64,000 nucleotides of DNA from Saccostrea cucullata. Taxonomy: Eukaryota. The position numbers were made by a program, and so were the translations under genes. A model generated the notes under the pieces. It made no database searches. It worked only from the letters and a program-made list of their open reading frames with translations, and had not been told where the DNA came from. The stretch covers positions 186,001-250,000 of the forward strand of contig NW_026930701.1 in assembly GCF_032062105.1 (NCBI RefSeq). Reading direction: 5' to 3'. Shown piece after piece: positions 28,592-61,804 of this stretch (within the stretch, counting starts at the first letter, position 1; the number at the start of each line of letters is the position of its first letter).

Positions 28592-30131
28592 TTAGATCAC
28601 ACGAACTTGAGGACCCCTTCTCACGTTTCCGCCTGTTACAATCCCAGATAAGGTTCGTGGTGACGAACGCCGGAAGTTGATGGGTGTGAGGAACGGAATT
28701 CGTATGTTTTGCGCATTTCCCGGAACAGTGGTCCCCCGTCTTCTTAGCATTTGTAAATACCTAGCGGAGAGGATTCTAAGCTGTCTGAGCAGGTAAACTT
28801 CTCTGGCCTGCATTCTGGAAAGTTCTTGTCTCAATTGATCATATGATGGCTGATTGGAGTCGAATGGGCGGGGAATCATAGGGGGCGCTGTACCAGAAGG
28901 TTGAGCAGATATCTCATTATTTCCCGCTTCTCTATTCAAATTTAAAATCGGATCTGCTGCTCCTGTGTTAAGTTCCATAGGGTTAACACCATTTTGTTGT
29001 GTCGACATTGTTCCGTCAATTTCTTTTTGAGCGTTCACATGTTCTTCCTTCTGTTTGTTAAGGATGGCATCGGTAAAATCAATAGAAATGACCTGAAACA
29101 ATAATTGTTAGATTTTATAAAACTAGGATAAATTAATTGAAGCTGTAGAATAAGCAGCCTTAAAAAACCTTGAACATGTAATTTGAAGTCTTAGTATTTG
29201 TAAAGAAATATCTCTTATACGTAATAAAAGGGTTGCATGTATTTTAAAAAAGGAGGTTCATAAATTAGCAATATTAATACATGTTTAATATTTTTTTATC
29301 ATAAATGTTAATAAGAATTATGCATTTCACGAATGGTTCATCAATTTTTTAGTATTCAGAATAAACATTCAACCTCCTCTTTTCCAGTCTCTGGATCCGT
29401 TATTGTTTTCATGATGGCTGCAATTCCCCCTTGTGAATAGTTTTCAAGCATTTGTTGGACTTCCTCAACTGTGATGTTATATGTGGACATTATCTCCTTC
29501 AAAGCGTAGTCAAACACAACCTGTGTAGGAGTTAATGAAATTGTAATTAATACAAAAAGTACGAATTAACCTTTGTGATAATTACTTAATTAAACTTTAG
29601 CAGATTGAAAGGAAACTCTCAATTAACTTGTAGATTCTTATTTCCACCATTCTGTATTTCAAATTTTACAAGTGTAATAAAGTGTTTTTGGGGGGAAAGA
29701 AATATAAAACTTCTGTTTCATGTTTATAGCTAAGGTAGACTAAAATGTAACATACATACGGAATGCATACAACAGAAGGAGAAACGTGGAGATGCTAATA
29801 ATCATCAGGAATTGAATTTCAGGAGAGGCTGAGGGAAATGGTTTCTAAACCACGTGTCGTTTTAGAAAATATGCATTATATATACTGATTTTAAATATAG
29901 ACACCAATAAGACATTGTATCTGAAAAGTAACACACCTGAAAATTCCCTATAGTTAGTGTTCCATCACTGGAGACAGAAGCCTCTTGCTGCTGTTCTTTC
30001 TGAATGCTTGGAGTCTCCACGGTTGGGTTTTTTGTTGGGTCCAGTTCCTGTCCTTTGAAGCCATCAGGTGTTTGGCCAGGAACAGTGTTAGCCAAACATA
30101 AAACAGCTGTCAGTAGTAGTAAGCCACCCAT
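28592..30131 (-). CDS. G4: secreted family member, 280 aa, join(30131..29937, 29520..29374, 29092..28592)
   Basis: Signal peptide MGGLLLLTAVLCLANTVPG-Q. The 147-bp core exon VVFDYALKEIMSTYNITVEEVQQMLENYSQGGIAAIMKTITDPETGKEE is missed by the ORF track and has cag|...|gt borders. The last exon starts VISIDF and contains PSYDQLRQELSRMQAREVYLLRQLRILSARY. Confidence 0.9.
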
Positions 30132-32472
30132 CCTAGTTAAGGATATAGGGAAATGTATTATGTATGGAAGACAAAAGTCTACGTAAAATCTAACGGAGGT
30201 TAAACTATACACAACCAATATTACCATATACACGAAGTAAAGAACCAAATAACCATATACAGAATGCATAGATTCTGAAGCTTAAAATAACCGGAAACAA
30301 TGTATCTTTGCAAATGATACTCAAACTGCACTAAGAGATTTTTTATCGATTAGAGTCTCCTCTGAAGACCTCTACTGTAGCTGAAGACTACCTAACATTT
30401 TTGTGTATTTGCTGACTGAATAAATCTGTAAAACAACGTTACCTTTTTGGAAGGACTGTAATTTGCAAATTATGGCGAAAAAGGATTAACAAAATATTTA
30501 ATTAAGGTTAAACATTACAAAATAAATAAAAAAGAAATTTATATCATTATAGCAACGGAAATGTTTTTCAAAAGTAATAGCCTAACCTGAGTGAGAAGAT
30601 GAATTCCCCAAATGAATTGCTAAAACAATTAGTCGCCAAATAAAAATTTCAAGTTTATGTATCGTTCTCAGTTAAAACGACAATCATTCTATATCGATCA
30701 ATTAGTCCTCTCTATCTTTCAGTAGACTGTGGTTTTGTCCATTGATTCATTGCTTTCAAATAATGGTCATTTCAGGGTCTTTCTAATTGATCAAAAAAGT
30801 TTGAAAAACGTAATTTTAAACCACAACAATGGAATCCGTTTACAAACTAGATATCATACATCACAGTCCAGCCACTTTTAATTCTGATTAAGAATGGGAA
30901 TCAGAAAAATAGATTTTCTCCTTGTGATATAATATTGGCCCGATCAAAGGCTTTAGAAAGTTTTGCCAAGGAATGGTTTTTATTATTTAACTGGATTATA
31001 TGTATTACAAAGGCTGAATGTGATAACTGATCCCTCGTAACCCCAAGGGTACCATGAATATTTTTTTCTGTCATTTTTTTCTGAGAGAATAATGTTCTAT
31101 TTATGTAAATATTTTTACTTATATCCCTGATTTGAATTTTTGAAAGCCCAAAAAAGAAAAAAAAAACTTTAATTTCTTATAAATTTATTCAATGATTTCT
31201 TTGTATTTAGATCCTCCAATGTATATAAATATAAGTATAATAAACATTTTGCTTTAAAGAATTCCATATCTTTCGCATGCATTGTGTTGTCATATGATTT
31301 CCTGTTATGATCATTTTTTTTTAAATATCATTGATTAAAATTTAATTTTTACATTATTTTTATTTTCATTTACCTTTATGCTGCATTATTTTTGCAAAGT
31401 ATAATTTCGAGACCTTTCCAATCTCCATGATTGAAATATTTTGCCTTTTTTTTTGAATTCGTAAAAATATAATTTTGTAAACGAAAAAAAAAGTTTTACT
31501 CTTATACGTCCCGTTTTAATTCCCAAACTTGCGACCCTATTGTAAGGGACAAGAACAAATCCCTGGGCTTAAAACATAGCATACAATATACATAGCATTT
31601 GGCAGGATATCTTTTCAATCTTAAACAAATGCCTTATTTTTTCATAGTGCAATAAGTAAAAAAAAACCCTGAAAACTGAAATAACTGAAATAAACTGAAA
31701 TAAAGTTGATTTATTTAATGAAAAAAAGTACAAACCAATCAAACCTGAAAATAGTTTAATTTGATAAAACGCAGGGTCCTCAAAATTCCTGTGACAGGTA
31801 GGATCAGGTGCGTAAGACGACAGAACATCCCCTGTTGACTGGTCACACCCAACCTGACCCCTTCGTGTTAATCAAGTACACGGGATACTCTGTATTCAAA
31901 TTAAATGAATAAGCCAAAGCTTAACAATTGGATTAAAAAAACGTTTACCTTAAAATTCAATATTCCTTGCACAAAAATGGATGCATTAATAAACAAGATA
32001 ATTATACCGACCACACTTCTTTAAGTTTAAACAAACCGTGTAGCAATAACAAAATGACTCAGTTTAAAATTGACCGTACTTTGAACTAGCTCTTCAGTAA
32101 GAAAAAAGGGATTTGGAGACATAAGCAGATGATAGCGAAATATTTCCATTTCTAATTTTTTTTCTGTGATAACTCTTTGAAAGTTAGCGGAGTTGATTTC
32201 TTGATAATTCTACTGGAATGAAAATTTGGCAGGTCTATAGGTCAGGAGCTAAGGAATCCTAATATGCATGCAAACCTCGTGCGCATCTGTCTCTGTGTCT
32301 GACGCTTAGGAGGCCAAATTTGCATGAAAATCTCGTGCGGCTGCCTTTGTGTTTGACGTCAGTGGGCGAGAACTATTGAAATTGGCATGGGAGTCCTCGT
32401 GTAATTAAAAATTTATGTCTATATTTTAAAAGTCTAAATCTACAATTTTATTTCACAATAAAATGGAAATAT

Positions 32473-32770
32473 AAGAAATCACTGTCTAGTTAGTATAGTA
32501 AGCCAGGGACATCAACGATAGTGGGAAACATGGGATCGCCCGTTATGCAAATTATTCCATGTTTCTCACTATAGTTGGTGCCCTGGCATACTATACTAAA
32601 TAGACAGTGATTCCTTAAATATTACGTTACAGTAATAGAATCGGATATGAATTTATTATACTTTAAAAGACATAATCTCATAACTGCAATGGTGTGTGCA
32701 AACAAGTTGAATTAAGCGCTATGAAAATTTGTTTGCACACAACGTTGCAGTTATGATACTATATCTTTCA
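32473..32770. repeat. Two adjacent imperfect palindromes (~145 bp and ~105 bp)
   Basis: aatcactgtcta...tagacagtgatt (~32473-32617) and cataactgcaa..gtgtgcaaacaa...ttgtttgcacac..ttgcagttatg (~32665-32770). Confidence 0.8.
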
Positions 32771-60185: not shown

Positions 60186-60400
60186 TTATGATATATTCTT
60201 TTGACCGTCTGGTGCTTCAGTTGATGTCATTGTTGGGGTAGATTTACTTTCCTCTACCTGAAAATGCTTCTGAATAAATTTGAACAATCTCTGTTGTTCT
60301 TGAGAAAAAACATACAAAGCATTTTTCATTTGCATTTTTATCGCATATTGTGGGCGCAATATTGTGGGGAAAAAGATTGAGGCGGTCACAAGATAAATTC
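60186..60400 (-). other. Candidate alternative or relic phase-1 last exon of G8
   Basis: Acceptor ctttcctag|GA is in phase 1 and the frame stays open to 60186. LRPQY...RLF-x7-QVE resembles LTPNY...RLF-x7-KVD downstream of G6. Confidence 0.35.
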
Positions 60401-60844
60401 CTAGGAAAGCTGAAAGAGTTGATACATGTAACAACCAATCAAATAAATCTTTAAGCTTTATTTTGCATTTGTTTATCCAATTTTGAACTAAATAACAAGA
60501 TCTTAATAAATATATATTAGGACCCATCGTGCATGCTTTATGATATTTTTTTAATGTTTTATATAATAATGAAATGATTTTTATCTTTTGTTTATAATAG
60601 GAAATTCATGTATGTATTTAAAACTAGTGACGAATAACGTTTGTGTTTAGCAAATATTTTTTTTTCAAAAGGAAAAAAGTTGTTAATTTTAATTGCGCAG
60701 TTCTAGGAATCGTGTAGCAGAACAAAGACTAGATTGCAGGTATTTTATTTGCAACAAATGGCTTGCTAAGCTATACATGTATACAGAGTTGAGGTGAAAT
60801 GAAGAATGTCATGAACTTATTCCGGTCCGTGGATAAAGGTTTGT

Positions 60845-61804
60845 TTACATAACACGCATTCGAGGATCTTGTATCATACCGCCATTAACACTTCCAGATA
60901 ACGTGCGTCGACCATTGAAAGAAGGTCCTCCGCCATTAAAAGTAATCCGTCTGTTTAACGTCGGCCGCCTGGTCAGACTGCTACTCGAGATCGGTAATCG
61001 ACCTCTGTTTACCAGCTGAGAGTATCTTGATGATAACAATCTCAAACGTCTTAAAATGTCCATTTCCCTGGCTCGTATTCTCAAGAGTTCTTCTCGAAGC
61101 AATCCGTATGGCGGGCGCCCGGTAGCAAAGCGATCCGAATCCAAATCATTTCGCATTGAATTTCCCAATTCTCTTCGGGTAGGTTCATTCATTAAACTTC
61201 TTCGTTGCAGATCCCGAAGGCGCATTAATAAACGTCTGTTTTCTTCCTCAATACGACGAATATTGTTTTCCATTCTTCTAGAGGGTCCATCGCCTGGGAA
61301 TGCAGTTTCTTGAAACGGTCGCATTCGGCTGATATCATTCCCAGGCTGTCGAGGGCCAAAATCCCTATCCCCCGGCCGATCTGTGGGTCGCAAATTTCCT
61401 TCCATTGGGCCTATAGGTCCATCAGGTCCCGGGACCTCTCTTGGCGGCAGTACTCTCCGGCCTTGAGGTGTCATCCGGCTGATTTCCTGCTGGATCGTCC
61501 TGAGGTCTCTCTCTGCCTCTCGTCGCTCCTGTCTGTTTGTGATGGCGTTCTCGTTTCTGGTCATTCTCGTCAGCTGCCCTGTTTAAAGTATAAGAATATA
61601 AGTCTTAAAGAAAGATCTTACTACTTTTTTATACATCACAATTTCTCAAACTTTTTATTTTGTAATGTTTACAAAATTGTTTTTTTTTTCAAAGAAATAA
61701 ATCATCGTATTTATTTTTGATTAATGTTAATTATAATTTAGAGGTTTATACTAATAATGAAAAAAAAACATTTTATTCGTGATCGGTTGCTCGTTCTAGT
61801 TTAA

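What the first reader, a model, noticed from the sequence alone, without database searches (positions are those of the whole stretch)
28592..61130. Conserved C-terminal module: amphipathic helix plus Arg-rich tail ending RV(I/M)
Seen: G4 PSYDQLRQELSRMQAREVYLLRQLRILSARY, G5 PSYEALRQEVLRKRARELYLLRQLRLLSGRF and G8 PPYGLLREELLRIRAREMDILRRLRLLSSRY. These are followed by I(N/T)F...RxL(S/T)GxV(T/N)GG...PxxRV(I/M). G2 and G3 have looser versions (LLAEYRALQNRK, LLNEYNRLSQRE twice, G3 ending PIRLI). N-terminal parts are acidic and tails are Arg-rich with almost no Lys. Inference: block-polyampholyte proteins that may hetero-oligomerise via coiled coils or coacervate. Basic clusters after the helix (LRRRG, GRRG) could be convertase sites releasing a cationic peptide.
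Basis: partly seen in the sequence, partly recalled or inferred. Interest (0 to 1): 0.7.

Follow-up and report, generated by a model that had tools for sequence, protein, structure and literature searches.

The report
Oyster shell-edge coiled-coil protein family
Eight neighbouring rock-oyster genes form an unnamed family of predicted secreted proteins; three of them end in a conserved helix plus arginine-rich tail that likely helps them assemble into the organic scaffold of the growing shell, where a relative from another oyster was detected.

Summary
The module is real. G4, G5 and G8 end in a 31-residue helix and an Arg-rich, almost Lys-free tail, kept while synonymous sites between the paralogues are saturated; helix cousins occur in G2 and G3. 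In Crassostrea nippona the homologue is mantle-edge specific (log fold change 10.6) and was found by LC-MS/MS in decalcified adult shell with three neighbours; an earlier layer-by-layer proteome did not list them. Best reading: adult shell matrix proteins that assemble through heptad helices, the disordered Arg tails bridging acidic partners. Oligomerisation and coacervation are untested. Peptide release is weak: furin consensus 0 of 9, dibasic site 5 of 9. Corrections: the assembled G5 reads 20 residues past RVI (RNA contigs stop there); G1, G6, G7 lack the module; G2 exon 2 is broken here. New lead: the helix core position is Glu in G3/4/5/8 but Lys in G2, which predicts selective hetero-pairing.

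The parts
28592..28849 (-). G4 C-terminal module: 31-aa heptad helix plus 54-aa Arg-rich tail ending RVI-stop
35575..35841 (-). G5 C-terminal module; the assembled copy reads on to a stop at 35512, RNA contigs of three runs stop right after RV(L)
60845..61114 (-). G8 C-terminal module: helix plus 58-aa Arg-rich tail ending RVM-stop
860..1141 (-). G1 exon 1 (signal peptide + N-terminal domain); last exon lies outside the window in L003 8903-9790; no C-terminal module
6056..11346 (-). G2; N-domain 11083-11235; terminal helix with Lys at the core position (6139-6104); exon 2 (about 7246-7040) is disrupted in this assembly relative to the S. echinata orthologue
17088..22101 (-). G3, 1075 aa, two exons, Pro/Asp repeats, N-domain 21193-21339, two helix copies (18434-18399 and about 17993-17958), short Arg-rich end RLI
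   Evidence: model equals P0011
28592..30131 (-). G4, 280 aa, exons 30131-29937, 29520-29374 (N-domain), 29092-28592
   Evidence: GT-AG model equals P0008; both joints in RNA contigs
35512..38840 (-). G5, 401 aa, exons 38840-38679, 37658-37512 (N-domain), 36734-36500, 36173-35512; predicted helical hairpin, third helix, C-module
42609..45727 (-). G6, short duplicate of G7 (about 222 aa), N-domain 44274-44417, no C-module; RefSeq fuses it with G5 (P0002); no splice joint shown
51494..55803 (-). G7, 193 aa, N-domain 54705-54851 plus one helix, no C-module, spliced
60845..64000 (-). G8, 571 aa; Gln-rich exon 1 starts outside the window (L001 474) and ends at 63890; exons 62974-62828 (N-domain), 62179-61930, 61578-60845

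Best explanation
The helix-plus-tail module is the conserved C-terminal end of a family of oyster proteins that are likely secreted by the adult mantle edge into the shell's organic matrix, where the helix likely zips chains together as a coiled coil and the predicted disordered arginine-rich tail would bridge acidic partners or mineral surfaces. Each full member is built as signal peptide, acidic or Gln/Pro-rich spacer, a folded ~65-aa N-terminal alpha/beta domain, heptad helices, C-helix and Arg tail with a free hydrophobic C-terminus. With no Cys and few Tyr, assembly would be non-covalent (helix packing plus charge pairing), not disulfide or DOPA cross-linking. Shown: genes, splicing of G4, G5, G7, G8, conservation, composition; mantle-edge expression and shell detection of a homologue in C. 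nippona. Predicted: helices and disorder. Inferred: oligomerisation, partners, exact shell layer.
For: Shared N-domain exon: 11 genome matches, 8 in this window. Named relatives are all oysters. M. gigas LOC105346499 carries N-domain, hairpin and module. C. nippona CNI_027309, best NR hit LOC105346499: mantle edge vs centre logFC 10.56, FDR 2e-31, signal peptide +; its four neighbours 027308, 027310-027312 logFC 10.5-14.3 (PMC10543319 Table S11). Re-annotated as CNI_029007 it is an adult shell matrix protein by LC-MS/MS (>=2 unique peptides, bleached, decalcified shells), with 3 of those 4 neighbours, log2FC 7-15 in the four mantle contrasts listed (PMC12862220 Tables S5, S6, S21). Synteny: a secretin-family GPCR follows the cluster in C. 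nippona and lies about 39 kb beyond the window here. AlphaFold2 on the G5 orthologue: N-domain pLDDT 83-94, hairpin 143-236 at 93-98, C-helix 303-335 about 90, tail under 50. Heptad a/d hydrophobic 67-89%. No Cys after residue 20 in 20 of 20 proteins. Hydrophobic last residue in 19 of 20, background 26% (sequences not independent).
Against: The 2023 layer-separated proteome lists none of the five C. nippona genes in prismatic, foliated or chalky layers; it used SDS on powder with no decalcification step described, while the 2026 set pooled repaired shells and also lists actin, tubulin and ATP synthase, so shell detection may reflect repair membrane or carry-over. Only one C. nippona gene is tied to the family by sequence (through its best NR hit); the others by adjacency only. 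No tissue data for S. cucullata. The C-helix is net +3 to +7 with a Glu at a core position and no significant hydrophobic moment, which does not favour a simple homodimer. pTM of the monomer model is 0.36, so helix packing is unresolved. G1, G6, G7 lack the module and G2 is damaged here, so it is not needed in every member.
Confidence: 0.55

Rival explanations
1. The proteins build a non-mineral layer made at the mantle edge (inner periostracum, repair membrane or cement film) and reach shell proteomes only as remnants; the module would have the same assembly role there.
For: Extreme edge-over-centre bias; not listed in three cleaned mineral layers but listed once repaired shells were pooled; the edge-centre contrast falls from about 10.5-12 to 4-5.4 after drilling for 4 of 5 genes, as expected if the central mantle switches them on during repair.
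Against: The 2026 shells were bleached 12 h in 5% NaOCl; tanned periostracal proteins are typically Gly/Tyr-rich (recalled), these have 4-13 Tyr and ordinary Gly; the two methods also differ in decalcification.
Confidence: 0.22
2. The C-helix folds back on the protein's own hairpin or third helix; the proteins act as monomers whose Arg tails and acidic spacers condense with each other or with acidic matrix proteins (coacervate precursor).
For: Strong charge blockiness in G4 and G5-type members, z -5 to -10; Arg over Lys preference; hydrophobic residues also at b, c and e positions and a core Glu; tails predicted disordered.
Against: G4 keeps the C-helix at 71% identity to G5 yet aligns at 7-10% in the hairpin and 0% in the third helix, so the helix is conserved where it has little of its own to pack on; conserved I(N/T/S)F and R.L(S/T)G.V motifs suggest specific contacts, not bulk charge; aromatic residues are few.
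Confidence: 0.17
3. The proteins are precursors from which a convertase frees a 45-55 residue cationic defence peptide at the exposed shell margin.
For: An Arg at one fixed place after the helix in the 7 non-Magallana sequences and RR there in 5 of 9; tails carry 9-15 Arg with 0-2 acidic residues; the mantle edge faces seawater.
Against: Furin consensus 0 of 9; site missing in G8 here, Ostrea and both Magallana proteins; further RR pairs inside the tails would cut the peptide up; N-domain and helices are conserved as well as or better than the tail, unlike a disposable pro-region.
Confidence: 0.06

Closest known systems
Uncharacterised C. nippona adult shell matrix proteins CNI_029004/6/7/8 (PMC12862220 Table S21) and M. 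gigas LOC105346499
   Same: CNI_029007 has LOC105346499 as best hit, and that protein has the full architecture including the module; same clustering next to a secretin-family GPCR.
   Different: Listed only as rows; no family, domain or mechanism described in the passages and tables I saw; Saccostrea has eight copies.
Shell matrix proteins with basic ends or overall basic charge (shematrins, KRMPs: recalled; Songin: search listing only, PMC13756312)
   Same: Secreted, lineage-restricted, low-complexity spacers, cationic segment thought to contact acidic matrix or mineral.
   Different: No Gly-rich or Gly-Tyr repeats, no Cys, Arg instead of Lys, a folded N-domain and long heptad helices.
LysM domain (PF01476)
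   Same: Strand-helix-helix start; 25 columns align with HH probability 90; chitin is a shell component.
   Different: No Pfam LysM hit on family members, no Gly of the GD motif, extra beta-hairpins, global alignment probability 5.
Calmodulin-type EF-hand pair
   Same: The helix-T-x-E-E-helix stretch aligns over 30 columns, probability 83; weak PDB sequence hits, E 0.04 and above.
   Different: No Asp-rich calcium loop; entering helix replaced by a beta-hairpin in the model; global alignment probability 8.
Leucine-zipper type coiled coils with a polar core residue that selects the partner (Fos/Jun logic, recalled)
   Same: Four-heptad a/d stripe with one charged core residue, Glu in G3/4/5/8 and Lys in G2.
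   Different: Extracellular, no basic DNA-binding region, pairing untested.

Membership tests
Adult shell matrix protein (operational class) | Signal peptide / secretion | tested here: inconclusive
   Hydrophobic N-termini in all 8 gene models, no predictor run; SignalP '+' for the C. nippona homologue.
Adult shell matrix protein (operational class) | Mantle-specific expression | tested here: met
   For the C. nippona homologue: edge vs centre logFC 10.56; log2FC 11.8-15.0 in four mantle contrasts. Tissue of the laid Saccostrea-like runs is unknown.
Adult shell matrix protein (operational class) | Peptides in cleaned shell | tested here: inconclusive
   Listed in the 2026 decalcified whole-shell set, blank in the 2023 layer set; none seen for S. 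cucullata.
Coiled-coil protein | Heptad a/d hydrophobic repeat in a long helix | tested here: met
   8 of 8 helices p 0.001-0.046 (windows picked by eye); AlphaFold2 helices, hairpin matching generic two-helix hairpins at Z up to 10.6, rmsd 2.1, 96 aligned.
Coiled-coil protein | Inter-chain helix packing of the C-helix | not tested
LysM (PF01476) | Sequence profile and GD(T/S)L binding loop | tested here: not met
   No LysM hit at E up to 1 on exons or 0.05 on full proteins; Gly absent in 28 of 28 aligned domains.
LysM (PF01476) | beta-alpha-alpha-beta fold | tested here: inconclusive
   Model has two strands, two helices, a hairpin and a short strand; the domain was not folded alone; no LysM row.
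EF-hand | 12-residue Asp-rich calcium loop between two helices | tested here: not met
   No such loop in the 28-row domain alignment; only the inter-hand helix pair aligns.
Convertase-processed peptide precursor | Conserved R-X-K/R-R or dibasic site before the peptide | tested here: not met
   Furin consensus 0 of 9, dibasic 5 of 9.
Shematrin / KRMP type basic shell proteins | Gly(-Tyr)-rich repeats, Lys-rich or Cys-bearing basic part (features recalled) | tested here: not met
   Composition table, 20 proteins.
Gigasins (C. gigas insoluble matrix proteins, recalled) | Sequence homology | not tested
   No gigasin sequence was at hand; the named database records of this family read 'uncharacterized' or, once, 'piccolo-like'.

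The most novel reading that the evidence does not exclude
The array encodes a charge-coded, multi-subunit secreted polymer: G2, with Lys at the buried core position of its terminal helix, is the pairing partner for G3, G4, G5 and G8, which carry Glu there; the family-wide Arg-hydrophobic-hydrophobic C-terminus docks on the unclassified N-domain of the next chain, which may also grip chitin, giving a disulfide-free, DOPA-free scaffold unique to oyster shell margins.
Probability: 0.12. Interest if true: 0.7.

Novelty: new variant of a known kind. Interest (0 to 1): 0.4.

Why it matters
Most lineage-specific shell proteins are low-complexity chains with no handle on mechanism. This family has a compact conserved domain, predicted coiled-coil segments and a specific pairing hypothesis, so it offers a tractable test of how oysters assemble shell-margin matrix without disulfide or catechol cross-links. 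It also turns several anonymous rows of oyster shell proteomes into one family with an old (dS-saturated) tandem array.

Tried and rejected
Pfam: no family at cut-off for 13 exon-level and 10 full or partial family and neighbour proteins. ESM Atlas: no feature hit; best structural TM 0.24 whole protein, 0.41-0.50 for the N-domain. Fold searches of two models gave only generic helices or hairpins; best N-domain rows Z 2.0-2.4; the domain was never folded alone, so 'new fold' is not claimed. LysM lead: 10 of the 26 partial multi-repeat hits are LysM proteins, 5 are ankyrin; the LysM set was chosen because it hit, and calmodulin-type segments score alike (29.5 vs 31.0; shuffles up to 17.1 and 13.3), so a generic helix-cap-helix motif is the simpler reading. 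Gene conversion as cause of the module's similarity: rejected, pS saturated. Fam20C S-x-E sites are few (0-5). LOC identifiers in full text: 0 papers. Supplements with 0 hits: PMC8382897 (only 6,378 characters held), PMC6231486, PMC11464482; these may use other identifiers. Topic searches listed no paper on this family by title or abstract start. Earlier scan findings: none.
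Full report
What the window is. The window is G000:C12838:186001-250000 of a 1.17-Gb genome. Records named Saccostrea cucullata on a contig of the same length are identical to the window's gene models. Eight minus-strand genes, G1-G8, lie head to tail. A search with one 50-aa exon gave 11 matches in the genome: 8 in this window and 3 on two small contigs that resemble G3 and G2. GT-AG models of G3, G4, G5, G7 and the in-window part of G8 reproduce the database proteins exactly; contigs of public runs join exons of G4, G5, G7 and G8.

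The observation. The genome search with the G5 module returned G5, G8 and G4 (3 matches of 4 candidates scored). Between paralogues synonymous sites are saturated (pS 0.76-0.93) while pN is 0.20-0.38 in the helix, helix-plus-tail and N-domain blocks: old duplicates under purifying selection. A looser helix pattern drawn from the sequences matches 15 times in 14 of 20 family proteins, including G2 and G3, against 0.03 in shuffles (the pattern is not independent of the data). Corrections: the assembled G5 continues 20 residues after RVI, whereas contigs of 3 of 4 runs carry 13 extra bases that end it R-V-L (these runs align mostly at 90-99% and may be another lineage), and the S. echinata orthologue ends at the same place. 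The second G3 copy has one substitution. G1, G6 and G7 have no module. G2 exon 2 is disrupted against its S. echinata orthologue.

Anatomy. The feature shared by all eight genes is a ~65-aa N-terminal domain. AlphaFold2 with alignments of 35 and 32 rows gives it block pLDDT 83-97 in two members: two short strands, two helices, a beta-hairpin, a short strand. In the G5 orthologue it is followed by a helical hairpin (143-236, pLDDT 93-98), a third helix, the C-helix (303-335, about 90) and a tail under 50; pTM 0.36. The C-helix has 67-89% hydrophobic a/d positions (p 0.001-0.046 in 8 of 8) but no significant Eisenberg moment. One core position is Glu in G3, G4, G5, G8 and Lys in all 5 G2-type proteins examined. 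None of 20 proteins has Cys after residue 20; Trp and His are rare. 19 of 20 end in I, L, M, V or F. Charge blockiness is strong for G4, the G5 orthologue and the Ostrea and Magallana members, weak for G8 here, not seen in G1, G2, G3, G7.

Distribution. HMMER over 1.84 billion representatives gave 51 hits; I read 25 as family members and 26 as partial hits on repeat proteins. Every named member is an oyster: S. cucullata, S. echinata, M. gigas, M. angulata, C. virginica, O. edulis. In the domain tree (28 rows, 65 columns, many open forks) G1 and G3 groups are well supported and include non-Saccostrea or unnamed rows, and G2 rows from C. virginica group with G2 at low support, consistent with an array older than the genera. 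No Pfam family, no Atlas cluster, no clear fold match.

Where it acts. M. gigas LOC105346499 has the whole architecture. In PMC10543319 (seen: passages, the LC-MS/MS section, searches and one part of the supplementary table file, part of the command file) the C. nippona gene with that best hit, CNI_027309, and four consecutive neighbours are 10.5-14.3 logFC higher in mantle edge than centre, and none is marked as found in a shell layer; after drilling the contrast is 4.0-5.4 for 4 of the 5. In PMC12862220 (seen: passages, supplement searches, one part of Table S21) four of the five, under new ids, are adult shell matrix proteins by LC-MS/MS from bleached, decalcified shells that included repaired ones; the fifth (LOC105348159) has 0 rows. 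The earlier protocol describes no decalcification. The link for the neighbours is adjacency only, backed by a secretin-family receptor next to the cluster in both species. Two bioRxiv preprints on mantle folds and mantle cell types were seen as passages only; their supplements, including a periostracum proteome, could bear on the layer and were not visible.

Mechanism. I commit to a structural role: secretion at the mantle edge, assembly through heptad helices, and charge bridging by the Arg tail between acidic spacers, acidic matrix proteins or mineral (0.55). That G4 keeps the C-helix at 71% identity to G5 after losing the hairpin and third helix argues for a partner in another chain. The helix's positive charge and core Glu argue against plain homodimers and point to G2, with core Lys, as a candidate partner; this is inference. 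Rivals: a non-mineral margin or repair layer (0.22), monomeric coacervating polyampholytes (0.17, not exclusive of the first), and a processed cationic peptide (0.06; furin consensus 0 of 9, dibasic 5 of 9).

The N-domain. Its first 25-30 columns align both to LysM repeats (probability 90) and to the helix pair between calmodulin EF-hands (83; weak PDB hits). The two folds exclude each other, the signature residues of both are missing, and global alignments fail. I file it under neither; chitin and calcium binding remain cheap tests.

Verdict. A real, conserved module in an apparently undescribed, oyster-restricted family of likely shell matrix proteins. No paper names the identifiers in its main text; members appear only as supplementary rows. 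Novelty: new variant of a known kind. Interest 0.4.

Noticed in passing
L002 1630-4170 (minus), just upstream of G8: Single-exon 847-aa protein with a signal-like N-terminus, no Cys in the mature part, acidic first third and Arg-rich, nearly Lys-free remainder; no N-domain match; a compositional sibling of the array.
   Followed up: partly
L003 7401-7934 (minus), downstream of G1: Another small ORF with a signal-like N-terminus and no Pfam hit.
   Followed up: partly
window 40500-48500 and 49000-59000: G6 and G7 regions are a segmental duplicate at 75-92% identity, including 27-bp tandem repeats at 43663-44199 and 54415-54625; RefSeq fuses G6 with G5.
   Followed up: partly
window 6890-7250: G2 exon 2 is shortened and out of frame against S. 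echinata; the G2-like copy on L006 also changes frame in this exon.
   Followed up: partly
window 63194-63935: 50-bp tandem repeat in the first G8 intron whose first unit overlaps the end of the coding exon.
   Followed up: no
window 11424-11841: 43-bp tandem repeat directly upstream of G2, with units resembling the G2 start region.
   Followed up: no
window 21593-21930: 66-bp coding repeats giving Pro/Asp-rich units in G3 exon 1.
   Followed up: no
L003 1677-4424 (minus): 916-aa ORF that looks like the endonuclease-reverse transcriptase of a non-LTR retrotransposon (by eye).
   Followed up: no
L012 864-1220 (minus), C12838:146864-147220: Secretin-family GPCR exon region, the syntenic marker next to the array.
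   Followed up: yes
L005/L006 and L008: G3-like (605 aa, no Arg-rich end) and G2-like copies on contigs C16601 and C19369; second locus or haplotigs not resolved.
   Followed up: partly
L019-L048 (contigs C21329, C12099 and others): Large tandem clusters of calmodulin-like genes in this genome.
   Followed up: no
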